Shown piece after piece: positions 45,562-63,479 of a stretch of 64,000 bases of DNA. Source of the DNA: Nitrosopumilus sp. (GTDB lineage Archaea; Thermoproteota; Nitrososphaeria; Nitrososphaerales; Nitrosopumilaceae); contig OZ240211.1 of NCBI GenBank assembly GCA_965197525.1, positions 1,536,001 to 1,600,000 on the forward strand, read 5' to 3'. The notes under the pieces were generated by a model, which worked only from the letters and a program-made list of their open reading frames with translations, made no database searches and was not told the origin of the DNA. The position numbers and the translations under genes are program-made. Within the stretch, counting starts at the first letter, position 1, and each line of letters opens with the position of its first letter.

Positions 45562-45618
45562 GTTCTGTTAATTAGTGGGTTGTTGGAAGGTCAGAACGCC
45601 CGATAAGTTAACAGAACC
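45561..45618. mobile_element. 58-bp MITE with IS6-like ends
   Basis: GGTTCTGTTAA (45561-45571) / TTAACAGAACC (45608-45618); flanks TTATCTTA and TTATCTTC. Confidence 0.75.
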
Positions 45619-45655
45619 TTATCTTCTACTCTGTTCAATATTAGGGAGTTTTCAA

Positions 45656-45780
45656 GAGACTGTAAAGTTAGGGATGTAATTATTACAAGTTTTAAGACTG
45701 TAAAATTCGGGAGGTATATCGTGATCTGTTTTGAGACTGTAAAGTTAGGGAGATGACACGTTGTTTGGCTTGAGACTGTT
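45656..45780 (+). repeat. Left-end array of 19-bp repeats GAGACTGTAAAGTTAGGGA, 38-39 bp period
   Basis: Copies start at 45656, 45694 (variant), 45733 and 45772 (partial). Confidence 0.85.
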
Positions 45781-45832
45781 ACACTGTTAAAAACACGTCT
45801 TCTTTATAATATAGCCTGATGAGTATTATCTT

Positions 45833-46705
45833 ATGAAACAAATTTCTATTATGATATTAGGTATCATAATAACAGGATCTATGTTTACAGTTTATGCTAT
45901 AGATCAGGCAACAGCACAAGAAAAATTAATTCCAGATTGGATAAAAGGCACTGCTAGTTTTTGGATTAATGATGATATCACAGATTCTGAATTTATACAA
46001 GCTATTGAATTTATGGTCAATAATGGAATAATTAAAATTCCAATGATTCAAAATCTTGAAAATGAATTATCAGTATCAAAAAACAAGATTATAGAGTTAG
46101 AAACGAATACATCAGAATTAAAAACATATACTAGCGTATCTAAAACAACAAAAGATTTCTTAACTTTCAGCGATAAGATTTATGAATTTGGGGATGATCG
46201 TGCCAAAATTGAATATGAAACTCTCATTAAATGTAAATCTGTTGATAATAATTTAAAATTTCTTGAATTTACTAAATGGTTATCATATTATACTAACTAT
46301 ACAGATGATTTGACAATACAGGTTGAGGAACTTACAGAATCATTTGAATCTATATCCATCACTGACGTAACACCAGAAGAAAAGGTTATGCTAAAATATC
46401 TATATGATGAAACTAATCTAATAAATGGTATACACTACAGTGAACTTCAATTTTCCATATATGATGAATTATTAACATGTTTAAATGAAGTTGAGAATAA
46501 ATTTCTAAAAAATCCCAATACACTCACAAATCCAACAACACAAACATGTAATTTGTTTTGTGATTCAAGAGGGTATGAACCACAATGGGCTAAATCAATA
46601 AGTGAAGAAACTGCTTTCAACACATGTATTGATACTATTCCATTAGATAATAGCCCAGACTCTTTATGGTGTGATGAGTTCATTGAATATCTAGTGTTAG
46701 GTTAG
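45833..46705 (+). CDS. Secreted protein with Nitrosopumilus-type IPxWIK domain and C-terminal Cys-rich module
   Basis: Signal peptide; IPDWIKGTASFW...FIQAIEFMVNNGII; CNLFCDSRGYEPQW...WCDEF. Confidence 0.8.
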   Translation: MKQISIMILGIIITGSMFTVYAIDQATAQEKLIPDWIKGTASFWINDDITDSEFIQAIEFMVNNGIIKIPMIQNLENELSVSKNKIIELETNTSELKTYTSVSKTTKDFLTFSDKIYEFGDDRAKIEYETLIKCKSVDNNLKFLEFTKWLSYYTNYTDDLTIQVEELTESFESISITDVTPEEKVMLKYLYDETNLINGIHYSELQFSIYDELLTCLNEVENKFLKNPNTLTNPTTQTCNLFCDSRGYEPQWAKSISEETAFNTCIDTIPLDNSPDSLWCDEFIEYLVLG

Positions 46706-46954
46706 ATATCATCCCTTTCATTTTTTAGGATTTTGAAGAAATAATATCACTGTAAATATGAATACTATTCTTGATGCTATTATTCCTATAGTTATCTTGA
46801 CGACCTATATGATGCGTTAGAGTTGTTACAACTTCTTTGAACCAAGTTGAAATATTTACAAAAGTATCATTTTTGATTAACCACAATTTGTTGTTAACAT
46901 TGGTTACTTTACTGAAAATGTCATTTTTCGCTAACTAAAATACTCTAAAATGAT

Positions 46955-47566
46955 TTACTTTGGCGGCCTCTTACCGTCCATATATTCGATACACCAAGAG
47001 TAGTCTCGATCTTCAGTTATTAAGATGTCTAACATACCTCTATCTGAGTCTTCAATATAGGCAAAACATGTAAACTCGATAACACGCTCAGACTGTCCTT
47101 TGGCCCAGTCCGGTTCCCAGTCTCGTATAATTGATGGTACATTTTTCAATGCCTCTTCATACTCTCGTGCTTCTAGCTCTCTCTCTTCTAGCTCTCTCTC
47201 TTCTAGCTCTCTCTCTTCTCGCTCCCGCTCCCGCTCTTGTGCATACTCTTCATCATAAAATGGATATACAATTACTATAATAACAAACAATAACATTATG
47301 ACAATTATTAACAAACCTGCGATCCATGAATTTGATAGTTTGGCAAACCATGATAATCTATAGAATACGTAAGTACTCAATAATGATATGAGCCAAGTGG
47401 TCATCATGAAGACCGACACATAATCTTTTGAATCAAATGTAAAAATATCGGGTTGAATGGAATGTATATGTATTACATTAGACCCCATAACTGTAGCTAC
47501 CGCAAACGCAAGCAGAAATTTCAAAAATCCACTTTGATGTTTTTCTTCTGCTGTATGAGGAAGCAT
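46955..47566 (-). CDS. Membrane protein with Glu/Arg tandem repeats and Cys/Trp module
   Basis: TM helices; 15-bp repeat x3 at 47171-47215 (ERELE); EPDWAK...C...WCIEY. Confidence 0.65.
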   Translation of the reverse strand: MLPHTAEEKHQSGFLKFLLAFAVATVMGSNVIHIHSIQPDIFTFDSKDYVSVFMMTTWLISLLSTYVFYRLSWFAKLSNSWIAGLLIIVIMLLFVIIVIVYPFYDEEYAQEREREREERELEERELEERELEAREYEEALKNVPSIIRDWEPDWAKGQSERVIEFTCFAYIEDSDRGMLDILITEDRDYSWCIEYMDGKRPPK

Positions 47567-47609
47567 AAATCAAAAAAATGTACCAATTATTTAAAAATTT
47601 AGAAGTCAT

Positions 47610-47748
47610 GGTTCTGTTAACTTGATGAGTGGTAGTTTACCATATGATATTATTGACATCAATTAATACTATAACAGGCATAATCCTACATCAGCGTTAT
47701 ACTCATCCCAGTACAACAACACATAACACCCGTCAAGTTAACAGAGCC
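47610..47748. mobile_element. 139-bp MITE with IS6-like ends
   Basis: GGTTCTGTTAACTTGA (47610-47625) / TCAAGTTAACAGAGCC (47733-47748), 15/16 match; CAT on both flanks. Confidence 0.8.
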
Positions 47749-47749
47749 C

Positions 47750-47890
47750 ATCTTTTTGAAACCTCAAACACTTTTTTGCAATCCATTATCTCACCGTTTA
47801 GGCGTTTCATCTTGTTGCTGTCACGATCTCTCTTCCCTGTAATGTAAACATGTCTAATATAATTTGTCTTCTTTTCAAAACTAAAAAACA
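47750..47890 (-). pseudogene. Fragment of an IS6-like transposase gene
   Basis: FEKKTNYIRHVYITGKRDRDSNKMKRLNGEIMDCKKVF resembles the NNxxERxNGExRDRxKV catalytic-E segment. A 31/33 copy lies at 60148-60180. Confidence 0.55.
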
Positions 47891-47968
47891 GTTTTACACA
47901 AAATAATTTTTACGCCATATCCACATTATTAGACAGGACCCAAATCACCCCAAGCGTTTTTAAAAACA

Positions 47969-48199
47969 TTACTTTATCTTTTGTGTCTTCTTTAACAACT
48001 CATGAGTCATTCCAATCATAACAAATGCTCCGCCAAACAACCCGGCTATAATCCCATATAACAAATTGCCTGTCAACCAGTCCACCATGCATATAAATAG
48101 CAGTATACTAACGAACCCACTAACTAACACTATTACTGCAATACCTACTAGGCTTCCAATACTATTAGCTGTATCATCAAAGGCAGGCATGGCAAACAC
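47969..48199 (-). CDS. Small membrane protein
   Basis: 76 aa, two to three hydrophobic helices. Confidence 0.6.
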   Translation of the reverse strand: MFAMPAFDDTANSIGSLVGIAVIVLVSGFVSILLFICMVDWLTGNLLYGIIAGLFGGAFVMIGMTHELLKKTQKIK

Positions 48200-48283
48200 T
48201 GGAATTGATGCAATATTAAAGTATGAGACATAAACAAAAAGCGTTTCTTTGTTGATTAAAAGTGCTAAATAGTATAGATCAAG

Positions 48284-49312
48284 ATGTATTCTATCAGAAA
48301 AATGAAACTAATTGTCATTGTAATAATTGGGTTAATTATTGTAATCGGAGTACCGATATCACTGATATCATTTTTCATCTATGATGCAGGGCTTAAGGCC
48401 GAGAAGAAAGAGGCAGAATGGCAGGAAAGGGTTGAGGCACATAGGCTTCAAGAAGAGAAACAAGCAGCAGAGAGGTTAGAGGCAGAGGCTGTAGCAGAGA
48501 GGCAAGAGAGGTTAGAGGCAGAGGCTGTAGCAGAGAGGATAAAGGTAGAAAAAGCAAGAGAAAGTGAATCAATCTGTCATGATGAAATAATTAAAGAAAG
48601 AATAGAACAGGCTATCGTTCTTAGTAATCGATTCTATCAAGCGTGTGAACCTGTCCAATATGGATCATATAATGACTTTGTTATATTTTCTGACAAAATG
48701 CAGACTGTTGAAAATCAGATAAATCTTCAAACAAGTTTTCAAGCAATAAATGAAAGCATACTGGACTTGATTATCACAGTTGAAAACAACTGTCAGTATA
48801 CAGAAATACGTGACATAGGTATTGATCTAAAATATGACTTTATTGTAATGAGTTTATGCTTTGAAGAAGTGTATGAGCAGTTTGGAGAATTTCCAGGTAT
48901 GGAATTAGGGGTATGGGATAACGATCATAATCCTCAACATAATACAAACAATAGCCAATGTCATATATTTTGTGATTCAAGAGGATATGAACCCGATTGG
49001 ATAATATATCAAGAAGATCTAGATGATCTTCTAACAACGTGTGTAGATGATGTACCGTTGGATAATAGCCGAGATTCGTTATGGTGTGATGAATTATATG
49101 AATATGCACTTTCGCCAGGCGGAGTTTCCAGCGATTCTAATAGCCAATGTCATATATTTTGTGATATTTACGGATATGAGCCACAATGGGCCAAATCAAT
49201 GGATGTTTATCAAGCAGCTGGAGTATGTATGTCAATCTTTAATAATTCTGAACAGGCAAGTGATGATGATCTATCATGGTGTTATGAACTTGCAGGATAT
49301 CTAGTGGAATGA
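48284..49312 (+). CDS. Membrane-anchored protein with coiled-coil repeat and two Cys-rich modules
   Basis: N-terminal TM; 36-bp duplication (ERLEAEAVAER); CHIFCDSRGYEPDW and CHIFCDIYGYEPQW modules. Confidence 0.8.
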   Translation: MYSIRKMKLIVIVIIGLIIVIGVPISLISFFIYDAGLKAEKKEAEWQERVEAHRLQEEKQAAERLEAEAVAERQERLEAEAVAERIKVEKARESESICHDEIIKERIEQAIVLSNRFYQACEPVQYGSYNDFVIFSDKMQTVENQINLQTSFQAINESILDLIITVENNCQYTEIRDIGIDLKYDFIVMSLCFEEVYEQFGEFPGMELGVWDNDHNPQHNTNNSQCHIFCDSRGYEPDWIIYQEDLDDLLTTCVDDVPLDNSRDSLWCDELYEYALSPGGVSSDSNSQCHIFCDIYGYEPQWAKSMDVYQAAGVCMSIFNNSEQASDDDLSWCYELAGYLVE

Positions 49313-49566
49313 TGTTAATCAAAAATTTAGGCTGTGATTTTGTAAAACGTTTTACAGTGTAAAACATCAACAAATGCGTTTTTTTGTTGATAATTGTCAA
49401 ACAACTCCATAAAAAGTGGAATTAAACAAATTACATAATAATACACTGTTCCAAATTAGAGATATTTCCAGACACTGTTTAATTAGGGACATATACACGG
49501 TCTATTTTAAAATCATTAAAGAAAGCCAAACTAATAACAAGATAAAACATGTTATAAAAAATAGAT

Positions 49567-49833
49567 ATGACGCGCAAACTGATACTCGCACTGCCAATCG
49601 GCATCCTGGTTTGCGCGGCTGCGATATTCTCGATTGAGGAACCGTCTCCAAATCCTTATCTGATGGAACCGGGAAGTTATGCAGGGCTACAATGTTGTAA
49701 CAATCATGAATGCTACGTCGCTCATGACATAGAATGGATGTCCCTTGAAACACATGAGTGTATTCCAAGAGCAGGTGCGGACAAACAACCCATACCCGAC
49801 GAATGGATTTGGCGTGACGATCTTTTAAAATAA
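49567..49833 (+). CDS. Small secreted Cys-containing protein
   Basis: Signal peptide MTRKLILALPIGILVCAAAIF; QCCNNHEC motif. Confidence 0.6.
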   Translation: MTRKLILALPIGILVCAAAIFSIEEPSPNPYLMEPGSYAGLQCCNNHECYVAHDIEWMSLETHECIPRAGADKQPIPDEWIWRDDLLK

Positions 49834-49856
49834 TATCTGAAAAATTATAGATTCTA

Positions 49857-50100
49857 TCAGATATTCCCCATCACATACTCTAACGCAACTCTAAACTCGT
49901 CTAGGGTTATCTGTTTTTTTATTACCAGTGGTGCAAGATCAGTCATGACCCAGGCAGGTATGTCTTCTCCCATGTGACTCAGGCCCATGGCATCCAGCAG
50001 CTGGCCGTCGTCTGCCACCTCGGACTCAAATCCAGACCACGCGCGCAGTACGGACAATGCGCGGTCATAATCTGAGTCATCATCAAAAGTCTCAATCCGC
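49857..50100 (-). pseudogene. Orphan C-terminal domain of a thaumarchaeal surface protein
   Basis: RIETFDDDSDYDRALSVLRAWSGFE...DIPAWVMTDLAPLVIKKQITLDEFRVALEYV. No signal peptide or upstream domain; abuts the end of the HEPN gene. Confidence 0.55.
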
Positions 50101-50125
50101 TATTGGCTTTTCCTAAACTTCTTTT

Positions 50126-51511
50126 TTATTCCTTATTTGTGCAAAGAATATTTTGTGCATTGGAAACAATTCTATTTGCTTCTTCTTGGCAGTATTCCAA
50201 TAAAGATTTGTCTAAAATCTGGATGAAATCGGACTTGGACATATCCATAGTAACTGATACAACAAGTGCTATCCTTAGAATTTCCAATAATTCTTTGATA
50301 AAAGCATCCGGTCCACCATATTTTTTTAGTTTTTCCTCGTCCTTAGATCCAATACAATCGCCATGAACAAATTTACTTCTTATAGTATAGGCATCTTTTA
50401 TCTTGTCTCTTACATTCAGTTGATCTTTACCAAGAAACTTCATAAGGCTTGCGACTCTTAATGACAGCCTGAATGATAACTCCCCACTATCTTGTTGGAG
50501 AAATATACTTTCAAGCCCCATTACAGCATCAGCAATTTTTCGATCTGTAGAACTATTTTTCAGGCAGTCTACATATCTGTTGTAGGCTATTGTAGCAAAT
50601 TTATCTTTTTTTGATAAAGTGTTAGATATTTTTTTAGCATTGTCTTCAAGTGAAGAGAAAAATTTTTTCAAGCATTCTTTATCTGATTGTCTAACGAGGT
50701 AAGTGTGGGCTGCACGTGAATTATCTAACGTTTCTATGTTCATTCCCCCACCCCCAAACCAAGGATCCATTATAACAGAATGCATTTTAAAACGAATATG
50801 TCTGATACTTCCTACACGGAATAATCTTAATATGGATATTATATGTTTAATTCTATTTATTAATTCTATATCAGTTTTGGCATACATCTCCACATCAATA
50901 ATGGCAGTAGGATATTGTTTAGAAACATCACAATCCGCAGGATATGCGGGAAAGTTTTCATTAATGTCCTTTTCAGAAGTTTGCCGAATTTTTATTCCAC
51001 ATCCTAGATTAATAGACGGTTCTTGTAATATTATACCAATCAGTTCTACAGTAGCATAACATGGAAACTTCTCTCCTTTAAGATGTTTTAGTGCATCAGA
51101 TACAATTTTTTTAATTTCTTCACTAGTCCATTCATGCTTGAATGCAGATAGCATAAAAAGTCGTAAAGATACATCAACTGTGTTTTTTGGTAGTTGATAG
51201 TTGTCCAAAATTAATTTTTCAAGCTCTAACACTCGTGGTGATTTTAAAAAATGCTGTGTAACAGTCATATGTAAATCCGACCAATATAAAATAGGATTTT
51301 CTTCTTGTGTCATATTTGTAATTGTTATACCATTATTATGGACACCAGAATCATCATATGTAAAATTACTTACAGTCCATCGATATTGGGAATCCATACT
51401 GTTTGTTTTCAAAGTATCATCGTTTTTGCCATTTTTGATAATCCCAACTATTTCTGTTAAGATTTCAACAAATAATTGATGAACTAGATTGTCCACAGAT
51501 GAAGAAGCCAT
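50126..51511 (-). CDS. ApeA-like HEPN domain protein
   Basis: C-terminal DAVMGLESIF...ELSFRLSLR...AYTIRSKFVHG (Rx4H). Confidence 0.8.
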   Translation of the reverse strand: MASSSVDNLVHQLFVEILTEIVGIIKNGKNDDTLKTNSMDSQYRWTVSNFTYDDSGVHNNGITITNMTQEENPILYWSDLHMTVTQHFLKSPRVLELEKLILDNYQLPKNTVDVSLRLFMLSAFKHEWTSEEIKKIVSDALKHLKGEKFPCYATVELIGIILQEPSINLGCGIKIRQTSEKDINENFPAYPADCDVSKQYPTAIIDVEMYAKTDIELINRIKHIISILRLFRVGSIRHIRFKMHSVIMDPWFGGGGMNIETLDNSRAAHTYLVRQSDKECLKKFFSSLEDNAKKISNTLSKKDKFATIAYNRYVDCLKNSSTDRKIADAVMGLESIFLQQDSGELSFRLSLRVASLMKFLGKDQLNVRDKIKDAYTIRSKFVHGDCIGSKDEEKLKKYGGPDAFIKELLEILRIALVVSVTMDMSKSDFIQILDKSLLEYCQEEANRIVSNAQNILCTNKE

Positions 51512-51834
51512 ATGATAAAGTGTTGTATGCTTTACATATATAGAAATCATTCTTTTCTACTGTTCTGTTAACTTGTTGAGGTATAATTCCTCGTGTTAAC
51601 TGTAGAAGGGTGTTTTTTATAGTCAATTGCGAATCGCATATAACTTGTCATTTAAATCTGCATACGGATTGTTAATCTGCCCTTCCGACATACTCTTTTT
51701 TTCTAATTTATATTCAATATTATCTAGATTCTTGATCACATCCATTATACCTTGAATTAATCAATAATGTTTGCAACGGTATTTCATAATCTCTTGCGAC
51801 TAATAATTATATGTGGTTTTATTGACGGATTTTT

Positions 51835-52998
51835 GTGTTTGGAAAAAACCTAGATGATGTAACTTATGATGACATAATCAAACTGAAAGAAAGAAAAATA
51901 GATGAAAGTGACATTTTAGATTACAAGATAGACTTTCAAAAAGAGGATGAGATCATAAAACATGTTTGTGCCTTGGCTAACACTCGTGGAGGATACTTGA
52001 TCTTTGGAATAAAAGCATCAAAGGATGGCGGACATCCAACAGAGATTAGAGGAATGGAGAATAACAAGATACATAAAGAAAAAATTGAAAATTTAATGCT
52101 GTCTAACATAGTTCCACGTTTGGACATCAAAATAAAAACAGTTGCAGTACCAGATACAGAAAATTCAATTTTGCTTGTACAAGTTCCTGACAGTTACAAC
52201 AAACCACACTATAATCAGAAGAACAATAAATTCTACAAACGATACAACTTTCAATCTAATGAAATGACAGAACAAGAAATTGCAGATTCCTACAGGAGAC
52301 GTTTTTCATCACATGATCAAGTTGAGCAATATGTGAATCGTTTGTTTAGAAAACAAAAGACGTCTTCCCTTGTTGAGAGCATCATAGTTATTCCGTCAAA
52401 TATAGAACATAGATTAATCGACACATTTGACCGCACAAAGTATGAATGGTTGGGAGATATTTCGCTAAAACATAGTTGGGGACCGCGTGCAAATCCAAAT
52501 AACTTTTTTCCGTCTAGTCTACGACCTTTTGCCGATGGACTTTATAGTAAGAATGGAGAAACACAAAGAACAGAGATTCATAGAAACGGCTGCATTTTTT
52601 ATACATCTGTCCATGAACAGTTACTCTATAATAATTTGAAAGCCAGATCTAATGACAACGATTATTATAATTTACTGTCTGGAGTATATGCAGTTAAAAC
52701 AATGCATACACTCCAAGCCGCATATCAGATCATGTCTCATTATAACTACCTCGGCGAGGTAAAGATTATTGCGAGAATTGTTTGTCCTCCTCACACTCAA
52801 TTACTTTTTAAGGATAATAGGCTTATACGCCTCTCTCAAAACTTAATCATTCACATAGAAAAGATGTTCTCATTACAACACATCAAAACCAATTATCAAG
52901 AGATTACCGCAGATGTTATGCATGAAGTAGTAAACCATTTTGGAGTAGAAAGATGTGAGTTATTTGATACAGAGGGACAATGGATAGAAGATTGCTAA
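51835..52998 (+). CDS. Schlafen/AlbA_2 domain protein
   Basis: ESDILDYK, KHVCALANTRGGYLIFGI, FYKRYNFQSNEM. Confidence 0.85.
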   Translation: MFGKNLDDVTYDDIIKLKERKIDESDILDYKIDFQKEDEIIKHVCALANTRGGYLIFGIKASKDGGHPTEIRGMENNKIHKEKIENLMLSNIVPRLDIKIKTVAVPDTENSILLVQVPDSYNKPHYNQKNNKFYKRYNFQSNEMTEQEIADSYRRRFSSHDQVEQYVNRLFRKQKTSSLVESIIVIPSNIEHRLIDTFDRTKYEWLGDISLKHSWGPRANPNNFFPSSLRPFADGLYSKNGETQRTEIHRNGCIFYTSVHEQLLYNNLKARSNDNDYYNLLSGVYAVKTMHTLQAAYQIMSHYNYLGEVKIIARIVCPPHTQLLFKDNRLIRLSQNLIIHIEKMFSLQHIKTNYQEITADVMHEVVNHFGVERCELFDTEGQWIEDC

Positions 52999-53051
52999 TG
53001 AATTTTTGACAGGTCAATATGATTACTGACTATCTCTTGAGATTTTAAAAA

Positions 53052-53339
53052 TTAAGGTCTAACGTGATTTAACACTACTTTTTTACCATGTAGATCTTGG
53101 TTATGACAAAAATCAACCTGAAAATTAAAACCACAGTTAACACATAGAAAACCTGGCGTTGAGTTAGGTAATGTGTCGGCACATTCTGCACCGCATAGTA
53201 AACAATTCATCCCATGTGGGTCATACCATACCTCTGTTTTGCCGTCATCAGATACTTGATACCAATATCCTTGAGGAACTTCAAGTTGTCGTTCATGTCT
53301 TGTGACACCTTTTAGTGTCTTGTAGGCTGTAACCTCCAT
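53052..53339 (-). CDS. Small hypothetical Zn-ribbon protein
   Basis: CLLCGAEC...CVNCG. Confidence 0.6.
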   Translation of the reverse strand: MEVTAYKTLKGVTRHERQLEVPQGYWYQVSDDGKTEVWYDPHGMNCLLCGAECADTLPNSTPGFLCVNCGFNFQVDFCHNQDLHGKKVVLNHVRP

Positions 53340-53460
53340 AGTATATTTTAGTGTAGATAGGGTTTAAAAGTTTGTTATAAAATTAGATATGATTAATTTT
53401 TGTTCTTTGTTAATTCATACTCACTAAGAATGGAACTTTGTAAAAATATTTCAAAGAACA

Positions 53461-53778
53461 TCAAATGCACAAGTTTGCATATTCCTCAACCTTACTACGA
53501 CCAATCATATGTGTATCGTTTTGATTACCAGAAGGTCTAGGACACAGTAACAACCAACGCTGTATCCGATTATGCCTCTGACATTTTGGCGGTTCTAAAA
53601 CTGGCAGATTCATTCTTTTCATGTCATGTTTGTTAATTCCGGTAACTAACACACCATTTGGTTTTAGCATTTGTGCAATATTTTGTAATATTTTTTTCTT
53701 AGATTTCATATCAATATAACGTATAACGTTCAGACAGATTATAATATCAAATTGATTTTCATATTTTAACTGCTGCAA
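53461..53778 (-). pseudogene. C-terminal part of a class I SAM methyltransferase (CheR-like)
   Basis: EFICADLQQL...FDIIICLNVIRY...LKPNGVLV present; SAM-binding motif I absent; upstream overlaps the next gene. Confidence 0.55.
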
Positions 53779-53806
53779 GTCAGCACAGATAAATTCTACT
53801 CCACTG

Positions 53807-55336: not shown

Positions 55337-55818
55337 AGTAAATCTGTGTGACTGACAGAATTATAAATCAAGTGTTGTACGGGGTGTCATTCAAATCTCA
55401 GTTCTACAGATCGTAACAGGCTAGATTACCCGGAACGCTTCTGTCAGTTTTTCAAACCAATTCAATTCCTGATTACCCCACGTGAGTAGGCACGTCATTA
55501 TGGTGCCGAACATGATCTTTCCTATGACATCTACAAACTGCTGGCGTATCTCTGTTTGTTTCGCACATACGTTAGTTTTCATGTTCGGAGCCTAACTGCG
55601 ATTAACCCTAATGAATTGGTAAGAATGGTACTGAGTGATAGAGCTCGTATAGATATGTGTCCAACCATCTTCTTGGCGAAACACTGTTCCCAGCTGATGC
55701 CGTACTCAAACACACAAAAATCCAGAAAATCTTTAAAAAGAGTGCACATAGATATTCTTTTAGCTATAAGACTAATGATATCAGCACATCTATAAACTGT
55801 CATGTGTTTTGAATTCGC

Positions 55819-56214
55819 GTGCAGTATTCCAATTGGAATGATTTTGAAAAATTTCATCAGAAATCTACACGATTTAGTCGCAACACTATGGCTACAATGG
55901 GATTTGGTTATGGCGGTGCTAGTCCGGAAGCTAAATGTGCCGTGTTCTCGCTGTTATATATAAAGATGGTTGGGACGTTCCACAATAAAATAATAGATTA
56001 CTGTAGTCGCAACGAAATAAAAACTAAGAACAAACCCTTACGCATATTGTTGGACAAGATAAAAGAACATAATGTGATAAATTTGAATTTTGCAGAATTA
56101 GAATGCATACTCAGTAAGCGCAACAGTATAGCACATGAGCCTGATTTCCTTATATCCGAGAGTACGTTTGAGATGGATAAAAAAACACTGTTTGCTGAAT
56201 ATTCGAAATTATAG
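55819..56214 (+). CDS. Small protein with HEPN-like motif, possibly truncated
   Basis: ILSKRNSIAHE (RNxxxH). Confidence 0.5.
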   Translation: MQYSNWNDFEKFHQKSTRFSRNTMATMGFGYGGASPEAKCAVFSLLYIKMVGTFHNKIIDYCSRNEIKTKNKPLRILLDKIKEHNVINLNFAELECILSKRNSIAHEPDFLISESTFEMDKKTLFAEYSKL

Positions 56215-56428
56215 TTAGGATCACAAATTCGTGTGGATTAATTCAGTTTTTTTGTTTATGTATTTAATCAATTTCAGATTGAATCATACTAGATAATATG
56301 TCGAGATGGCCATATATAGTTGGGGTCAAAAAGTTTCGATCATTGAATCTTATACTCCACGTAGCCAACATGAGCCGAATTTTTTGACTCCTATGCATTA
56401 TTGGAGCACATGCACGAGTTCAGATAAC

Positions 56429-56809
56429 TTAATGATACGACATACCGCTACTAGTGCGACGTAATATTCTAATGTAATTAGATAGTGGTTCTGAACATCT
56501 CTTGCAAAAGGTTGCTGTAGAACCTATTATTCTAACTTCTTTTACTGTTAATGGTTCAAATGTATCTAGGAACATAAGGCAATATGTCTGCACGCCAATA
56601 CAATCAATACCGCATGTAATACATATGCCATCTCCAAACTGTTGTATGACACGTTTGACATAATCAAAAAGATCCACCGTACATCTATTGCAAAATAAAA
56701 TACCGGTTCCGTCAAGATTCTTTACATTCAATGGCTTCAACGTAGTAGTTTCAAACAAATAACTTTTAGGTTCATTCCCGCATTCTGTGTCACAAATACC
56801 ACATTTCAT
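56429..56809 (-). CDS. Tandem two-domain Cys-rich (Zn-binding) protein
   Basis: Internal duplication CGICDTEC...FCNRC / CITCGIDC...FCKRC. Confidence 0.7.
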   Translation of the reverse strand: MKCGICDTECGNEPKSYLFETTTLKPLNVKNLDGTGILFCNRCTVDLFDYVKRVIQQFGDGICITCGIDCIGVQTYCLMFLDTFEPLTVKEVRIIGSTATFCKRCSEPLSNYIRILRRTSSGMSYH

Positions 56810-57533
56810 GCTATCACTATTCCGTTGATCATATAAATTGACTATAAGAGTTCATCGTACTGCGGTTTTGTCTAGTCAAAGTCACGAGGATGTTCTTCTC
56901 AACGTACGTGATATAAAATCTAGTGTCTGTCTGCATTCATATTTATTGATACAGATCGACCTTGGTAATGCATCAACTGGCTATAGTAACGCATATAAAT
57001 TTGCGCAGTCTTACCTGTAGCCAATTTCTTTGATTAGGTTATCATGATATGGTTGTAGGCACCATCGTGCATGGAAATGTATGTATTTTCTTCAAAAAAT
57101 AATGTTTAGGTGTACGAACTTATGCTTTTAGATGTATGTTTGTAATTATTCCATTCATGACGTTTCGCGGAATCGTTCTGGACCACCTGTATCTGGGAAG
57201 AATCCGGAGACTTTTGAGATCTCCATCGTAGTAACGGTACAGACAGTCGCAGATCCACGTGAGACAGTGTACCGGGATGTTGACAGTCCATCCACGGACA
57301 TGTCAAGGACTCGTACCATGCAAACGACGACTATTTTGATTTGAACCTTAGTCATCCTTCTTGCGTGCCTTTTCGAGTTCTTCCCGTTTTGTATCATCCA
57401 TGCATCTTTGAGATGAGATCTGATCTACAAACTTTTCAATTAATTATACGCAAACTTTGACGCGTCGATATAGGCACGTTTGAAGAGGTTGTGTGACTAG
57501 CTACATTTTGTAGAAAATTTTTACGCTAACTTT

Positions 57534-58469
57534 TCATTCTTGGTACAGTTCGGAGTATTTGGCAATCCACATAACAGATGCTTGGCTAAGACCAGTCAAC
57601 CACTTTAGTTGCGCGTGGGTGTGTTCCGGTTGTACGGGTTGAACAAATTTGGGCGGCCTGAGTGAACAGCCGAGTTTTACGGCAAGTTGGTCAAATTCGG
57701 CTAACAATTCATCCATATTATCCCCTTTTTTCTTGAGTTTTTCCTCCGGTGTATTACTCAGTGAGTGTGAGCCCATATTACGGGTTCTTCGTATGATGTC
57801 TACTGCGGCAAAGAATAGCTCGGCATCTGATCCCCAGCACTCATCGCTTTTGACCTTGTCCTTAAATTTGCACATTTTATTGTACATGGAACGCTCGTTC
57901 CACGTACCCATCATCTTGTCAGCATAATGCTCAATTGCCTGTAACATTGTGAGGAATAAACCACGCCATGCCGAAAGGTCATCGCGCCTCCTGATGTGAG
58001 CATGGATCAGACAGATCCCATATATGGAGAATTTATTGCCAGAACATAATGGTAGTACGTTAAACGGTAGAACCGGCGTAGGGATGTCATCTATACCATA
58101 CCACAACACATCCCAGTTCAGCATCAATCCATGGAATATTGCAGGTATGTTCTGTATTAAATAATCGGCATCCGCAAAGCGGGCAGATTTACTGCCCACT
58201 ATGACCACATCCACATCCAGAATGTTTCTAGGATCCAAGCCTAACTCATGTTCAATGTTAAATCCCATGCCTTTCAGGAATTGAACAATCTGATTCATTT
58301 CATAATGCATGTCATCCAGATCCGTGCTAATATGCAGTATGTTTACATACCTGGATCTGACTCTGTTGCGTCCTGTACACCGAAACATCTCAATACGAAA
58401 GTCCGCCATTGAATGGACGAATTTCCCCCAATCAAGTCTGGAATCAAACTTTGGTGTATTGGTAGTCAT
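57534..58469 (-). CDS. Hypothetical protein with C-terminal HEPN-like motif
   Basis: 311-aa ORF; IIRRTRNMGSH (RNxxxH). Confidence 0.7.
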   Translation of the reverse strand: MTTNTPKFDSRLDWGKFVHSMADFRIEMFRCTGRNRVRSRYVNILHISTDLDDMHYEMNQIVQFLKGMGFNIEHELGLDPRNILDVDVVIVGSKSARFADADYLIQNIPAIFHGLMLNWDVLWYGIDDIPTPVLPFNVLPLCSGNKFSIYGICLIHAHIRRRDDLSAWRGLFLTMLQAIEHYADKMMGTWNERSMYNKMCKFKDKVKSDECWGSDAELFFAAVDIIRRTRNMGSHSLSNTPEEKLKKKGDNMDELLAEFDQLAVKLGCSLRPPKFVQPVQPEHTHAQLKWLTGLSQASVMWIAKYSELYQE

Positions 58470-58554
58470 GTAGCATCACACATGATTTAGATGACTCCAA
58501 GTATTATTCATATGTTAGTCAACAGGTGACATACTGTGGAATATGAAAAGTAAT

Positions 58555-59080
58555 TACCCCCAAAAAAACTCCCCTTAAATAGAATTCAGTTATACAAATA
58601 ATGGAAACGTTGTGTTTGTTGCAAAAAATAAAAATAGAGATGTTTTGTTTTAAGATGTTTTTCAAACACAACAAACACAGCGTTTTCCAAACAACGATAA
58701 ATACAAACAACGATAAATACAAACAGTTGCCAGTCAACTGGATATTTTTTATTTAATGAAATAATTAGACATGTTTTTGTAGTCTGTGTTTATCATTTGC
58801 CTAAAAACCACCAAAAAAAGTGGCTTAAATAGAATTCATTTATCAAATAATGAAGATGTTGTAGTTTGTTATAAAAAATTAATAAGTTTGTTTGATGTCA
58901 ATACTTTTTGGTTTTAACCATAAAATAACAAATACAACATCTTCAAAATAACTATAAACCCAAACAGTTACTAGTCAACTGTATATTGATGAAGATACAC
59001 ATATTTTTAATAATCTTTAATTATTGTTTGTAATATATCCAAAAAACCCCAAAAAAAGTGGCTTATATACTATTCAATAT
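58555..59080 (+). repeat. Degenerate tandem units (about 240-250 bp): TATA-like box, long hairpin, palindrome
   Basis: CTTAAATAGAATTCA at 58574 and 58824, CTTATATACTATTCA at 59062; stems 58602-58621/58669-58689 and 58851-58872/58925-58945. Confidence 0.75.
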
Positions 59081-59089
59081 TCTATAAAC

Positions 59090-59650
59090 ATGAACATTTT
59101 AAAATGTTTACCAAAAAATGACCTCTTTACGCCACGTCAACGAAGACGAGCAGTATCAGGTCCAATTGTCGCAATTCTGATTATCGTTGTAGCAATTGCA
59201 ATTGTCGCAATTTTGATAGGTACAACTACTGATTTGATAGGTACAGCAAGTATTGTTGATTCAGTTGATCTTTCCAAGCAGACACTGTATGCAAAGCAAG
59301 AATTTGCCAGTATTACTGTGAAAAATAGTGGTACTACACCGATAGAAGATATTCAAGCATATTTGCTAATTACAAGTGACAGTGATTGTGGAAATGAGGG
59401 TACTTATAGAGCCTCAATTGGTGTAAATACTCTTACAAATGGTACTAAGGTTGTACAAGAGATAGAAGAACTAAATCCTGGTCAATCAGCAACAATTAGT
59501 GGTGATCTCTATCAAACTGATACTACCACTGGTATTGATTGCACTGGTACTAATAATATTGATGATCGAAAAGAATACATCATTCAAGTAGACGGTACGG
59601 GTGAAGGTACTCAAGAAACATCATTCACAACAACTGTCCGTTCTAGATAA
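59090..59650 (+). CDS. Archaeal type IV pilin-like protein (class III signal peptide)
   Basis: RQRRRA|VSGPIVAILIIVVAIAIVAILIG; ITVKNSGT; ATG 59090 lies about 25 nt after a TATA-like box. Confidence 0.8.
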   Translation: MNILKCLPKNDLFTPRQRRRAVSGPIVAILIIVVAIAIVAILIGTTTDLIGTASIVDSVDLSKQTLYAKQEFASITVKNSGTTPIEDIQAYLLITSDSDCGNEGTYRASIGVNTLTNGTKVVQEIEELNPGQSATISGDLYQTDTTTGIDCTGTNNIDDRKEYIIQVDGTGEGTQETSFTTTVRSR

Positions 59651-59751
59651 TCATAGATAGGACAATCAACATTTTTTTATTTTTTATTTAATGGAATGAC
59701 ATTTTTGTATTATTCTTTGTAACGCAGTGCCACATGCGCCCCCTTTCTCTT

Positions 59752-59819
59752 AAATTTTTTCATCCTAATTTTCGATTTTTAGATGAAATTTTTTCATCCT
59801 AATTTTCAAAATTTAGATG
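59752..59819 (+). repeat. 34-bp tandem duplication
   Basis: AAATTTTTTCATCCTAATTTTC...TTAGATG, two copies. Confidence 0.7.
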
Positions 59820-60214
59820 ATTTTTTGTGGATTATATTGATGGGTTACATAGGCTTAAACTCAGACTCTGTTAACCCATCGAAACTTTTAGGCATTTTTA
59901 GTGACTGTGATCTAAAACACTCTACACGGTGTCTACGCTTGGCAAACATCAACAAGAATGTAATCCCAAACATCATGAGTAATGTAGAAATGGAAGATAG
60001 GTGGATTGATGTGTGGACAATACTATTACAAAAAACTCGACGAATGTTATTTGGTAGAAAATATTTAGGTAAACATACATTTGGATTGGCCTTCACATTT
60101 GTAGTCATGCTATTGTTTTCATCCCTGTCTCTTTTTTCTACAATGTGAATATGATTTGTCTTCTTTTCAAAACCAAAAAAGACATTTTATATAAAACGGA
60201 ATCGTAACCGACGT

Positions 60215-61597
60215 ATGGACTCTAGAAATAAGAAAGCAACGTTGATTTTCTCAGAACATAATCCAATAAAAAAGATAACAAAGAATCACTACACTGTAGA
60301 ATCGCAAACCTCAGATAATACATACAATGTTAGAAAAATGCCAAAATCTGATGTATGGACTTGTGAATGTAGTGATTTTCACTTTAGACTGAGAAAATCA
60401 GATGACAAACACTGCAAACACATCAAATCTTGTATTTTAGTGGTAAATTCTATAAGAATACATCGCAGAATAGAAAAAACTGACATGCCAAAGGTTTGCT
60501 CAGCGTGCTATTCTAATGAAATTATTAAATCTGGATTTAGAACACTAAAGAATGGAACAAAGAGACAGCGTTATGAATGCAAAAAATGTAACAATAGGTT
60601 TATTCTAGGTGAGAATGGATTTTCAAAGGTAGAAACAAATCCCAAAATAATCTCAGAATCCATCAATTTAGTCATGTCAGGAATGTCATATAGAAGTGTT
60701 GCAAGACATATTGAGACATCACGTCAAATCAAGATTAGTCATACGTCTGTAAATAGTTGGATAAAAAAATATACCATTCTAATCAAGGAATATGTAGATA
60801 CTCTTGTTCCTAATGTATCTGATGTATGGTCCTTGGATGAAATGTACCTAAAGGTTAAAAACACAAAAAAGACAGGCAAGGGATTCCATGATTGGTTATG
60901 GAATATAGTTGACCCCAAGACTAGATTTTTGATAGCTACAGAAGTATCAAAGAGAAGGGAAACTAGTGATGCAAGAAAAATTATCGCTAGTGGAAAGCGT
61001 ATTGTTTCACAGAATAATAGACCAAATTACGTTCTAACTGACTCTCTACACGCTTATGAAAAGGCGATAAGAAAAGAGTTGGCAAATCGTACTGCTCACG
61101 TCAAAACCAAGTCTCTCAAAGATGGTTTTGTTAACAGGCCTGTTGAGAGATACCATAACACATTTCGTGAAAATTTAAAGTCAAGACGCGGACTAGGAAA
61201 TGATGAATCTGCACAGAGATTTTCTGATTTACATAGAATACATTATAATTTTACAAAACCACATCAAGGATTAGACGGTAAGACTCCAGCTCAAGAAGCT
61301 GGAATTGATCTTAAATTAGGTCATGACAAGTATAGGGATTTAATCAAGTTAGCAGGAACTAAACCAAACTTTGTAAATAATTTGGGAAAGAGAATCGATA
61401 AACTATCAATAATTCATGAAGGCGACTGTATCAAAATTTCAACTAAAGAGTGGATTGACAAAAAAATCTGGAGAGAAATTAATGATATTCTAAGCCTTCA
61501 CAAATTTAGCTGGTTATCTAATGGTAAGGACAGTTGTTGGATTAGAATTAACTCTTTGCCAATAATACAAAAAGATAAAGACGATAACCAAGACTGA
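60215..61597 (+). CDS. IS6-like (IS240-type) DDE transposase with N-terminal SWIM and Zn-ribbon domains
   Basis: SWIM WTCECSDF...HCKHI; CSAC...QRYECKKC; HTH MSYRSVA...ISHTSVNSWI; D WSLDEM, D LTDSLHAY, E VERYHNTF; YNFTKPHQGLDGKTPA. Confidence 0.88.
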   Translation: MDSRNKKATLIFSEHNPIKKITKNHYTVESQTSDNTYNVRKMPKSDVWTCECSDFHFRLRKSDDKHCKHIKSCILVVNSIRIHRRIEKTDMPKVCSACYSNEIIKSGFRTLKNGTKRQRYECKKCNNRFILGENGFSKVETNPKIISESINLVMSGMSYRSVARHIETSRQIKISHTSVNSWIKKYTILIKEYVDTLVPNVSDVWSLDEMYLKVKNTKKTGKGFHDWLWNIVDPKTRFLIATEVSKRRETSDARKIIASGKRIVSQNNRPNYVLTDSLHAYEKAIRKELANRTAHVKTKSLKDGFVNRPVERYHNTFRENLKSRRGLGNDESAQRFSDLHRIHYNFTKPHQGLDGKTPAQEAGIDLKLGHDKYRDLIKLAGTKPNFVNNLGKRIDKLSIIHEGDCIKISTKEWIDKKIWREINDILSLHKFSWLSNGKDSCWIRINSLPIIQKDKDDNQD

Positions 61598-61673
61598 AAA
61601 ATCCTAAAATACTATCACCTATATGCTCATTTATATCAGAATTTAGATTTAAGCAGAGATTTACAATAATAGA

Positions 61674-62624
61674 TTAAGGACAACTCCGACATTTGCCCTC
61701 TATAAATGGTCTTCTTTTAAGATCATCTTTGATCTTTTCTAATTCATTCTTAAAACAATCTAACTCTGTTGAGATATTATAGTATTCAGATCCATACTCG
61801 CTGTAGGATTTTTTCAATGAATCATCATTGATTATCTCTGTTACTAACTTCTTGTATTTCTCAAAATCTATCTCGCTATCAGACCCCATGTGAAAACCAT
61901 TAGGTTTCCACTTTGAATAAATTACTTTGTGTTCATTTGATTTATTATAATATAAAGATTTCAGAGCATGTTCAGAAAAACCATTAACATTTTTGAAATA
62001 ATCTATTATAAATTGTCGAATATTTGATATGTCGTAATATTTTAATTCAGTGACTCTATTTTCAAAGTCAGAAAAACACTCATCCATTTTTTCTTTTATC
62101 TTGTCTTCCAGAATTTCCGCAATACTGGTTTTGCTGTCGAGTTCGTCCAACATGGTTTTTACTTTTTCCCAGTGTTTGTAGATGTGCTTGTATTTATCCT
62201 TAAGATGCTCTATTGCAGAGTCATAATAGAGATAAGCAGATTCAGATTTCAACTGGTCTTCATATAATGTCTCAGGCAGTATGCCTTCCTCCAAGTCGTG
62301 ATAATAGTGGGGGCTATCTGGGTAGTATTCCTTTGGGAATTTGATAAAGTATTTCCACCGTTCTTCCCCTCTACCGTGATCAAGTTCAACAAGTGTAAGC
62401 ATTTTGTAGACTTCATTTATGGATTTTGTATGTTCTTTTTTCTCACTGCGTGGTACTTCATTTCCGAAAAAGAACTTCTTAAGAATTACTAGCAAAAATC
62501 CCACGCCCACAGTTCCAATAATTGGTGTAATTGACTTGCTTTCATCTGGTAATATTATAGGCAATAATAGAGCTACTGATATAACTAGGATTGCACTTAT
62601 GAACCAGATATACCTTCGTCGCAA
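61674..62624 (-). CDS. Hypothetical membrane-anchored protein
   Basis: 316 aa with two N-terminal TM helices. Confidence 0.75.
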   Translation of the reverse strand: MRRRYIWFISAILVISVALLLPIILPDESKSITPIIGTVGVGFLLVILKKFFFGNEVPRSEKKEHTKSINEVYKMLTLVELDHGRGEERWKYFIKFPKEYYPDSPHYYHDLEEGILPETLYEDQLKSESAYLYYDSAIEHLKDKYKHIYKHWEKVKTMLDELDSKTSIAEILEDKIKEKMDECFSDFENRVTELKYYDISNIRQFIIDYFKNVNGFSEHALKSLYYNKSNEHKVIYSKWKPNGFHMGSDSEIDFEKYKKLVTEIINDDSLKKSYSEYGSEYYNISTELDCFKNELEKIKDDLKRRPFIEGKCRSCP

Positions 62625-62718
62625 TTCTTAACCTGTTCGTCATTATTTTGTCAATATATAACCATTATAACATTCAATTTTATACCCCTATCACGACAAC
62701 TAAGCAGACACCAAATTT

Positions 62719-62997
62719 TTAACAGAATGTAAACGGGTGGCCTACCTTTCCACAGTTCATCTTATCAAGCCCCTGCACCATGAGCTCCTCGTTTATCTGA
62801 AGCATAAACAACTTGCCGCGATCTATGTATTTGCGGTTATCATACTGGAGTCTGCATTCGTTTGAACTGTAAGATTTTTTAGTACCATGCTTGCCTAGTT
62901 TGTCTGGAGAGGATGTGTTTTTGGTCATGATTGATAGTCTGATTGACAACGCACCTCTCTGTTCAATACAGTTTTCTATTGAAAGTGTTTGATACAA
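62719..62997 (-). pseudogene. N-terminal remnant of an archaeal IS5-family transposase
   Basis: YDNRKYIDRGKLF...DKMNCGKVGHPF resembles the N...RG...MNxGKxGxP(F/Y) start of archaeal IS5 transposases; no DDE core. Confidence 0.5.
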
Positions 62998-63079
62998 CGT
63001 TCAAATTCAGTTGTTCTATGCCTAATCTGATCTGATTTTGGATTAGTTAGGCGTGGTTGATGATAATTAGGAAACAGAG

Positions 63080-63174
63080 TTCCGAAAAAGAACTTCTTAA
63101 GAATTACTAGCAAAAATCCCACGCCCACAGTTCCAATAATTGGTGTAATTGACTTGCTTTCATCTGGTAATATT
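63080..63174 (+). repeat. Exact 95-bp direct copy of 62462-62556
   Basis: TTCCGAAAAAGAAC...CTGGTAATATT read identical at both sites. Confidence 0.9.
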
Positions 63175-63176
63175 GT

Positions 63177-63251
63177 AACTTGTAATAATTACATCCCTAA
63201 CTTTACAGTCTCACGCCAAATACCCTGTCACCTCCCTAACTTTACAGTCTC
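63177..63251 (-). repeat. Right-end array of the 19-bp repeat (inverted relative to the left end)
   Basis: TCCCTAACTTTACAGTCTC at 63194-63212 and 63233-63251 (39-bp period); 63177-63193 matches left-end spacer 1. Confidence 0.85.
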
Positions 63252-63329
63252 TTGAAAACTCCCGAATATTGAACAGAGTATTATCTTCAACTCTGAATGC
63301 ATGTAAAAACATCCTCGTCGTAGTCTAGA

Positions 63330-63449: not shown

Positions 63450-63479
63450 AAAACAATCCGCAAGGAGGTGATAAAAAGG

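What the first reader, a model, noticed from the sequence alone, without database searches (positions are those of the whole stretch)
45619..63288. 17.6-kb IS6-like cargo transposon with long, multi-site TIRs and an 8-bp TSD
Seen: 48-bp inverted repeats TACTCTGTTCAATATT(A/C)GGGAGTTTTCAAGAGACTGTAAAGTTAGGGA (45627-45674, 63233-63280; one mismatch), each flanked by TTATCTTC. They enclose the whole accessory region: exported proteins, HEPN/Schlafen genes, a pilin and one intact DDE transposase (60215-61597) with no TIRs visible beside it. Established: IS6 members make 8-bp duplications and have ends like GGTTCTGTTGCAAA (IS257/IS431). They normally move cargo as composites of whole IS copies. Inference: this is a unit transposon in which a SWIM/Zn-ribbon IS6-like transposase acts on distant, complex ends. 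I do not recall such an element being described in archaea.
Basis: partly seen in the sequence, partly recalled or inferred. Interest (0 to 1): 0.88.

Follow-up and report, generated by a model that had tools for sequence, protein, structure and literature searches.

The report
Archaeal IS6-like cargo transposon, 17.6 kb
This is a real 17.6-kb transposon in an ammonia-oxidising archaeon, one of a previously undescribed family of IS6-related elements that carry gene cargo (often restriction-modification systems) between long, multi-site ends.

Summary
51-nt inverted repeats (96%) at 45627-45677 and 63230-63280 are each flanked by TTATCTTC. They enclose 17,654 bp with one intact 460-aa DDE transposase (60215-61597).

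The transposase matches IS6 best (Pfam PF13610 above threshold; NCBIfam IS6 below its cut-off). Nine delimited relatives of 2.3-11.6 kb in other Nitrosopumilaceae have the same kind of ends; eight of them carry an orthologue (46-96% identical across all loci fetched). Seven elements, including the window's, have perfect 8-bp duplications. They share only the transposase. Cargo differs and is often restriction-modification or other defence genes.

Every delimited end of the window's end type carries 3-6 direct copies of a CTGT-AA-TTAGGG motif. A metagenome contig with a 96%-identical transposase has the same right end at another site and a colinear backbone with different cargo. So the large element has moved as a unit.

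Relatives have no insert downstream of dus. Here about 30 kb is inserted there, and TTATCTT[A/C] occurs four times at element junctions. In 7 of 26 termini examined, another element's tip lies exactly 8 bp outside. This suggests insertion next to resident ends.

No description was found in the literature searched. The scan noted this stretch once before, in an overlapping window. It is a new variant of a known kind.

The parts
45619..45626 (.). Left copy of the 8-bp target duplication, TTATCTTC
   Evidence: It abuts the left tip. It is also the right flank of the 58-bp MITE at 45561-45618.
45627..45793 (+). Left end. Terminal site 45627-45648. 19-mer sites at 45656-45674, 45694-45712 and 45733-45751 (38-39-bp period). 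A partial or fifth site lies at 45771-45793.
45833..49312 (.). Cargo: three predicted exported or membrane proteins (45833-46705 +, 46955-47566 -, 48284-49312 +). Two of them share a C-terminal Cys/Trp module (45833-46705 and 48284-49312).
   Evidence: No Pfam family. The module also occurs at genome 588502-588717, inside another element of this superfamily, and at 827789-828058, about 2.5 kb from ends of the window's type.
47610..47947 (.). Nested remnant of a GGTTCTGTTAAC-type (second end type) element: a 139-bp MITE-like unit at 47610-47748 plus an adjoining fragment.
   Evidence: The region 47748-47947 is colinear with L057 2498-2700, which adjoins a transposase-paralogue fragment. It has no duplication.
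49442..49490 (+). Internal solo left-type end of a related element (two sites)
   Evidence: It is 84% identical to the end at genome 1250334-1250408.
50126..58469 (.). Cargo: a 474-aa protein (50126-51550 -), a Schlafen/AlbA_2 protein (51835-52998 +), a methyltransferase fragment (53461-53778 -), a 509-aa protein (53807-55336 -) and a 311-aa protein (57534-58469 -). Nested multi-copy MITEs lie at 49819-50098 and 55418-55762.
   Evidence: PF04326 scores 9e-22 for 51835-52998. HEPN is only a sub-threshold hit (0.0027). The others have no family and no PADLOC hit.
59024..59650 (+). Possible type IV pilin-like protein
   Evidence: Only a weak NCBIfam UpsA hit, E 0.002.
59783..60148 (+). 121-aa ORF upstream of the transposase, conserved (96% nt) with the closest relative only
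60215..61597 (+). Transposase, 460 aa. It has a CxCx14CxH (SWIM-like) motif, a C4 zinc ribbon, an HTH, a DDE core (D208, D276, E311, R318) and a conserved C-terminal domain (about aa 385-445).
61674..62624 (-). 316-aa predicted membrane protein, convergent with the transposase
   Evidence: It is 48% identical to a gene in the same tail-to-tail position beside the transposase paralogue of the element at genome 583727-588872.
62724..63081 (.). Nested multi-copy 358-bp element, flanked by a 98-nt direct repeat (62462-62559 and 63080-63177)
   Evidence: A 100% identical copy lies at genome 1064077-1064434.
63177..63280 (-). Right end: terminal site 63259-63280 and 19-mer sites at 63233-63251 and 63194-63212
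   Evidence: It is 94% identical to the right end in L057.
63281..63288 (.). Right copy of the target duplication, TTATCTTC
   Evidence: An IS110 copy follows directly; it sits inside the tip of another small element.
45553..45618 (.). Outside the element: TTATCTTA followed by a 58-bp MITE with GGTTCTGTTAA tips. Its first G completes the dus stop codon TAG.

Best explanation
A single-copy, apparently intact unit transposon of 17,654 bp. It inserted as one piece into the 8 bp TTATCTTC at the 3' end of dus. Its 460-aa DDE transposase belongs to an IS6-related lineage found mainly in Nitrosopumilaceae. Inferred: the transposase binds the 3-5 direct CTGT-AA-TTAGGGA sites at each end, pairs the two ends 17.6 kb apart, and joins them to target DNA with an 8-bp stagger. 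Everything between the ends rides along. Whether this goes through an IS6-style replicative cointegrate resolved by host recombination, or by cut-and-paste, cannot be told from sequence. Elements of the family with and without duplications both occur, which fits the IS6 pattern. The family acts as a shuttle for variable cargo, often restriction-modification or other defence genes. New copies tend to land in the 8 bp next to a resident end, which builds arrays such as the 30-kb island here.
For: Shown:
- TIRs, sites and TTATCTTC flanks are present.
- The transposase hits PF13610 at 57 bits (cut-off 27). NCBIfam IS6 gives 105 bits over model positions 2-202 of 202.
- D208, D276, E311, R318, the CxCx14CxH motif and the C4 ribbon are invariant in 36 homologues.
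- The model shows an RNase-H-fold transposase or integrase core.
- Elements with this end type and perfect 8-bp duplications: L047 CTAGATTT, L048 AAAAAGTG, L052 CAAAATAC (non-autonomous, orthologue just outside), L051 CTAAACTG (11,554 bp), L054 TGATATCA (8,395 bp). L068, with the other end type, has CCCAAGCG.
- Only the transposase is shared between these elements.
- Cargo includes type II, type III, type I-like (methylase plus specificity subunit) and ISP-type R-M and a PLD-SNF2 nuclease-helicase.
- All delimited ends of this end type have 3-6 site copies.
- L057 (96% transposase) has the same right end at a different flank. It has four blocks colinear with the window, from 47748 to 63280, with other cargo in between.
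- The seven same-genus dus loci read through lack any insert after dus.
- From the literature: IS6 features are an 8-bp repeat, the cTGTt and caaa end motifs, DDE+K/R, and longer clades with a zinc finger (PMC7986276).
Against: - The protein scores below NCBIfam's IS6 cut-off (105 vs 125) and also hits IS1 (67 bits).
- The tips are TA, not GG.
- No transposition, binding or circle data exist.
- No empty site was found in a near-identical strain. The closest genomes are only about 78% identical in dus, and the metagenome scan gave chance hits.
- TTATCTT[A/C] occurs four times in the island, so the flanking pair is not a clean one-off duplication.
- Several nested MITEs and an internal solo end show that part of the length was added in place.
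- Three of the nine delimited relatives of this end type lack duplications.
Confidence: 0.8

Rival explanations
1. A compact 4-6 kb transposon of this family inserted at TTATCTTC and then grew in place to 17.6 kb through nested insertions and recombination. On this reading the present unit has never moved as a whole.
For: Nested elements lie at 47610-47947, 49442-49490, 49819-50098, 55418-55762 and 62724-63081. GC content is uneven, from 0.28 to 0.45. Most delimited relatives are 4-6 kb.
Against: L057 shares four colinear blocks spanning window 47748-63280, including an old nested remnant, yet has a different right flank. A backbone of at least 8.5 kb therefore predates the split and sits at two sites. 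Relatives of 8.4 and 11.6 kb have perfect duplications. The recognisable nested repeats add up to less than 2 kb.
Confidence: 0.12
2. The two ends belong to different events. On this reading a solo left end and an autonomous right-hand element trapped chromosomal DNA, and the matching TTATCTTC copies come from the local habit of re-using that 8-mer rather than from one insertion.
For: There are four TTATCTT[A/C] copies at junctions in 30 kb. Solo ends are common in this genome. An internal solo end exists at 49442.
Against: The two ends are each other's best match in the genome (96% over 51 nt) and carry identical 19-mers. Other ends in the genome are at most 90% identical over shorter stretches. 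None of the enclosed genes is found at this locus in relatives.
Confidence: 0.05
3. The multi-site ends mark a Tn7-, Mu- or IS21-type system that needs a second, unrecognised transposition protein among the unannotated ORFs.
For: Multiple subterminal sites are typical of those systems (my own knowledge). TnsB is among the fold matches. Several cargo proteins have no known family.
Against: The elements compared share no gene besides the transposase. No AAA+ or IstB-like hit was found. The duplication is 8 bp, not 5. The fold matches are generic for the RNase-H core.
Confidence: 0.03

Closest known systems
IS6 (IS26) family insertion sequences
   Same: The DDE+R core matches the IS6 profiles best. 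The duplication is 8 bp. The end motif is CTGTT followed by CAA. Some IS6 clades also have an N-terminal zinc finger or an extra domain. IS6 members are also found with and without flanking repeats, and IS26 inserts preferentially next to a resident copy (PMC7986276).
   Different: IS6 members are 0.7-0.9 kb (at most 1.76 kb) with one gene and short 15-20-bp repeats. They move cargo as pseudo-compound structures between two whole IS copies. Only one member (ISDsp3) carries a single passenger gene. Here the elements are 2.3-17.7 kb and carry one transposase gene at most. Each end spans 75-170 bp and holds 3-6 sites. The tips are TA or GA rather than GG in this end type. The transposase has an additional conserved C-terminal domain. 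No thaumarchaeal members appear in the published IS6 tree.
Transporter IS (tIS), for example in the IS1595 family
   Same: A single transposase carries passenger genes between one pair of ends. The zinc ribbon scores weakly against the IS1/IS1595 N-terminal model. The 8-bp duplication of IS1595 is recalled from memory, not tested.
   Different: No hit to the IS1595 transposase model. The cargo here is far larger and more varied. The ends have several sites.
Tn7-like, Mu and IS21 elements
   Same: Several direct transposase-binding sites in each end. Large and varied cargo, often defence genes, as reported for Tn7-like elements (PMC8649781, title and abstract only).
   Different: No ATPase or target-selector partner. 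The duplication is 8 bp. New copies appear drawn to resident ends rather than repelled by them.
IS4321/IS5075 and IS30-type end targeting
   Same: Insertion at a fixed position relative to the end of another element (from memory, and from the earlier scan note e1-5476749 for the IS110 copy here).
   Different: Here the inferred target is the 8 bp just outside a resident tip. That 8-mer is duplicated, so arrays of tip-8 bp-tip form.

Membership tests
IS6 (IS26) family | Transposase matches the IS6/IS240 DDE profile | tested here: inconclusive
   PF13610 scores 57.3 bits against a cut-off of 27 (met). NCBIfam NF033587 scores 105.1 bits against a cut-off of 125 (not met), although model positions 2-202 of 202 are covered. 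IS1 is the second-best hit at 67 bits.
IS6 (IS26) family | DDE triad followed by K/R seven residues after E | tested here: met
   D208, D276, E311 and R318 are invariant in 36 homologues.
IS6 (IS26) family | 8-bp target duplication | tested here: met
   The window element and six relatives have perfect 8-bp duplications.
IS6 (IS26) family | Short 15-20-bp terminal repeats with a GG tip and cTGTt and caaa motifs | tested here: not met
   CTGTT and CAA are present. However, the tips are TA or GA in this end type (GG only in the GGTTCTGTTAAC type), and the ends span 75-170 bp with 3-6 sites.
IS6 (IS26) family | Length 0.7-0.9 kb with a single gene | tested here: not met
   Elements are 2.3-17.7 kb and carry one to more than 15 passenger genes.
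IS6 (IS26) family | Moves by cointegrate formation | not testable with these tools
   The only indirect sign is that copies with and without duplications coexist.
Unit transposon / transporter IS | One pair of inverted ends, a cognate transposase and passenger genes inside, with a duplication outside | tested here: met
Tn7-like / Mu-like / IS21 | A conserved ATPase partner gene and a 5-bp (or 4-8-bp for IS21) duplication | tested here: not met
   No partner is shared among the elements, no AAA+ hit was found, and the duplication is 8 bp.
Casposon | Cas1-type integrase and a family B polymerase | tested here: not met
   No such Pfam or NCBIfam hit in any of the ORFs of the element that were searched.
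IS1 / IS1595 | Transposase passes the family model | tested here: not met
   IS1 scores 67 bits against a cut-off of 100. The IS1/IS1595 zinc domain scores 21.9 against 28. There is no IS1595 transposase hit.

The most novel reading that the evidence does not exclude
These IS6-related transposases direct new insertions to the 8 bp that abut the tip of a resident element, of their own or a related end type, and duplicate that 8-mer each time. Repeated rounds would lay transposons side by side and assemble defence and accessory islands in ammonia-oxidising archaea. This would be a chromosomal, duplication-generating counterpart of IS26 array formation, and the opposite of Tn7/Mu target immunity.
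Probability: 0.4. Interest if true: 0.75.

Novelty: new variant of a known kind. Interest (0 to 1): 0.62.

Why it matters
IS6/IS26 elements are the textbook case of cargo moved only between two whole IS copies. The 2021 family review lists a single member with one passenger gene. Here an IS6-related enzyme works on distant, multi-site ends and carries 2-15 kb of variable cargo.

The transposase superfamily occurs in about a third of the Nitrosopumilaceae genomes sampled. Much of the cargo is restriction-modification or other defence genes. That gives a concrete vehicle for defence-gene flow and island building in one of the most abundant archaeal groups. The only survey of integrated elements in these archaea that was read here describes their IS-like transposons as elements of one or two genes. 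It also offers a simple one-protein system for studying how a DDE enzyme evolves from short single-site ends to long multi-site ends.

Tried and rejected
- **Metagenome scan for an empty site:** a scan for the dus 3' 19-mer, meant to find the site in a near-identical strain, gave three unrelated chance hits.
- **Species-genome scan for the site:** a scan for the exact 18-mer site gave two single chance hits in Bacteroidota.
- **Blind scans for back-to-back tips:** two pattern scans over 201 genomes were tried. The loose pattern matched no better than its control. The strict scan for pairs mixing the two end types gave six matches at scattered spacings, with only this genome's at 8 bp, against five control matches. 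The 8-bp adjacency therefore rests on inspection of delimited elements.
- **Cargo annotation:** PADLOC found nothing for ten cargo proteins. The protein atlas gave nothing useful for the 509-aa protein.
- **Solved structures by sequence:** nothing relevant.
- **Fold search:** only the generic RNase-H transposase or integrase fold, with ISCth4, retroviral integrases and TnsB as top hits. No IS6 structure is available.
- **SWIM and C-terminal domain:** Pfam does not call SWIM or any family for the C-terminal domain, even at E 10.
- **IS4/IS5-type IS at genome 1610476-1611820:** it has no second full copy, so its duplication length could not be read.
- **Rejected readings:** casposon, tyrosine-recombinase island, and Tn7-, Mu- or IS21-like element.
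Full report
**Observation**

The window lies at 1,536,001-1,600,000 of a single-contig 2.21-Mb genome.
- The inverted repeats run over 51 nt at 96% identity (45627-45677 and 63230-63280). TTATCTTC abuts both tips.
- Each end is an array. The terminal 22 nt (TACTCTGTTCAATATT[A/C]GGGAG) are a loose copy of the 19-mer GAGACTGTAAAGTTAGGGA.
- The 19-mer follows three times on the left (45656, 45694, 45733, with a partial further copy at 45771) and twice on the right (63233, 63194), with a 38-39-bp period.
- Five matches are found in the window against 0.01 expected.

**Contents**

The only transposase between the ends is 60215-61597. The other genes are:
- predicted exported or membrane proteins;
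- one Schlafen/AlbA_2 protein (PF04326, 9e-22; HEPN is only sub-threshold);
- a methyltransferase fragment;
- a weak pilin-like hit;
- several proteins with no family.

Small multi-copy repeats are nested at 47610-47947, 49819-50098, 55418-55762 and 62724-63081. A solo end of a related element lies at 49442-49490.

**The transposase**

- Pfam DDE_Tnp_IS240 (PF13610) scores 57 bits against a cut-off of 27.
- The NCBIfam IS6 model is matched over positions 2-202 of 202, but at 105 bits against a cut-off of 125. IS1 comes next at 67 bits.
- In 36 homologues the invariant residues include C50, C52, C67 and H69 (CxCx14CxH, the SWIM pattern, though Pfam does not call it). Also invariant are C95, C98, C122 and C125 (zinc ribbon) and D208, D276, E311 and R318 (DDE plus R seven residues on). 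A set of tryptophans in a C-terminal domain around residues 385-445 is invariant too.
- The AlphaFold model (pLDDT 76) shows an RNase-H-fold core. Its matches are ISCth4, retroviral integrases and TnsB, which is generic. No IS6 structure exists to compare with.

**The family**

The transposase superfamily is found in 75 of 201 sampled genomes of the same taxonomic family at E <= 1e-20. It is sporadic in other families of the phylum. The long form (about 447 aa, at least 45% identical) was seen only in this taxonomic family. Sources name the homologues from Nitrosopumilus, Nitrosotalea and Nitrososphaera.

In this genome two end types exist:
- the window's type, TAC[A/T]CTGTT[C/A]AA;
- a GGTTCTGTTAAC type that flanks paralogues about 30% identical.

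I delimited nine relatives with the window's end type:

| Locus | Size | Duplication | Cargo |
|---|---|---|---|
| L047 | 4.8 kb | CTAGATTT | HaeIII-type endonuclease |
| L048 | 4.4 kb | AAAAAGTG | MvaI/BcnI endonuclease plus methylase |
| L049 | 5.9 kb | none | type III res and mod |
| L051 | 11,554 bp | CTAAACTG | ISP-type R-M genes, PLD-SNF2 protein |
| L052 | 2.3 kb, non-autonomous | CAAAATAC | aldo-keto reductase plus epimerase |
| L053 | 5.3 kb | none | N6 DNA methylase plus type I specificity subunit |
| L054 | 8,395 bp | TGATATCA | peptidases |
| L059 | 3.8 kb | none | one unknown protein |
| genome 95414-96521 | 1.1 kb | 7 of 8 bases match | none |

One element of the other end type was also delimited: L068, 4.0 kb, with duplication CCCAAGCG.

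The three autonomous relatives compared by blastp share only the transposase with the window element. Every delimited end of the window's type carries three to six site copies, so the multi-site architecture is a family trait.

**Did the large element move as a unit?**

A metagenome contig (L057) encodes a 96%-identical transposase.
- It has a right end 94% identical to the window's, with the same 19-mers, but a different flank.
- Four blocks are colinear with window 47748-47947, 49504-49827, 59716-61544 and 63176-63280. One of these blocks adjoins an old nested remnant.
- The genes between the blocks differ, and include a TIR-domain protein and a proteasome-like protein.

A backbone of at least 8.5 kb therefore predates the split and now lies at two sites. 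Together with the 8.4- and 11.6-kb relatives with perfect duplications, this argues against pure growth in place.

**The target and the island**

- In seven of the 19 same-genus genomes with a dus match (about 78% identical), the sequence was read past the stop codon. It runs straight into a conserved promoter and the next gene.
- In this genome that native flank resumes at genome position 1,611,829, about 30.3 kb further on.
- TTATCTT[A/C] occurs at four junctions: before a 58-bp GGTTCTGTTAA-type MITE (where TTA plus the MITE's G makes the dus stop codon), on both sides of the 17.6-kb element, and next to an IS4/IS5-type IS just before the native flank.
- Right of the element an IS110 copy sits inside the tip AACTCTG|TTTCCCAA of a 135-bp MITE (earlier notes e1-5476749 and e1-5476750).

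**Ends next to ends**

Among 26 termini of 13 delimited elements, seven have another element's tip exactly 8 bp outside: both sides of the window element, both sides of L051, L054 right, L059 left and L068 left. In the window and in L051 the shared 8-mer is present three times in a row.

The simplest reading is that new copies insert into the 8 bp abutting a resident tip. IS26 and IS1216 are known to insert next to a resident copy (PMC7986276), but by a conservative route that makes no duplication.

Blind genome-wide pattern counts did not add support. The 12.5-kb segment bounded by the third and fourth TTATCTTC has unlike tips and remains unexplained.

**Comparison with what is known**

The IS6 review (PMC7986276) gives these family features:
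- an 8-bp repeat;
- a length of 0.7-0.9 kb, at most 1.76 kb;
- terminal repeats of 15-20 bp with a GG tip and cTGTt and caaa motifs;
- DDE plus K/R;
- longer clades with a zinc finger or an extra N-terminal domain;
- one member with one passenger gene;
- archaeal members only from Euryarchaeota and Sulfolobales.

The survey of thaumarchaeal integrated elements (PMC6563490) describes IS-like transposons as having one or two genes and does not mention IS6. A 2026 archaeal IS census (PMC13343696) gives counts only. Other searches found nothing on this family.

**Verdict**

It is best filed as a new variant of a known kind: an IS6-related family of archaeal unit transposons with multi-site ends and variable, often defensive, cargo. 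The window holds the largest and apparently intact example seen here.

Noticed in passing
window 45553-45626 and 63281-63288; genome 1611821-1611828 (L001 12821-12828): TTATCTT[A/C] occurs four times at element junctions within a 30-kb island that relatives lack. The first three fit serial insertions. The 12.5-kb segment between the third and fourth copies has unlike tips (a MITE tip and an IS4/IS5-type IS end) and is unexplained.
   Followed up: partly
L051 6143-6150 and 17705-17712; L054 13898-13905; L059 8216-8223; L068 7122-7129; L066 7964-7971: In other genomes too, tips of two different elements sit back to back, separated by exactly 8 bp, which is the duplication. This holds for 7 of 26 termini inspected.
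   Followed up: partly
window 63289-64000 and L001 289-1716: An IS110-family copy (four copies in the genome, 96.6-100% identical) is inserted inside the left tip (AACTCTG|TTTCCCAATTTCG) of a 135-bp multi-copy MITE, directly after the right TTATCTTC. An earlier scan note reads a bridge RNA whose guides match these flanks.
   Followed up: partly
window 62462-62559 and 63080-63177: A 98-nt direct repeat (99% identical) flanks a 520-bp stretch that holds a 358-bp multi-copy element. The repeat duplicates the 5' part of the 316-aa membrane-protein gene. Its origin is unclear.
   Followed up: no
window 58555-59076: Three tandem units of about 240-250 bp (67-83% identical) lie upstream of the pilin-like gene. 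Earlier scan notes read them as promoter-plus-hairpin units.
   Followed up: no
window 45559-45561: The dus stop codon TAG is made of TTA from the target 8-mer plus the first G of the inserted MITE. The other copies of the 8-mer end in C, which would extend dus. The A may have been selected after insertion.
   Followed up: no
window 61674-62624; genome 583857-584813: A 316-aa membrane protein (48% identical) lies tail-to-tail with the transposase in two elements of this genome that have different end types and transposases only about 32% identical. It is not found beside orthologues in other genomes.
   Followed up: partly
window 45833-46705 and 48284-49312; genome 588502-588717 and 827789-828058: The C-terminal Cys/Trp module of the exported cargo proteins recurs inside another element of this superfamily and about 2.5 kb from ends of the window's type elsewhere in the genome. 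This protein type may therefore be recurrent cargo.
   Followed up: no
L001 1890-5312 (genome 1600890-1604312): A 1140-aa LVIVD-repeat surface protein and two fibronectin-type-III proteins lie in the same island, together with degraded IS3-type (rve) and transposase-paralogue fragments.
   Followed up: no
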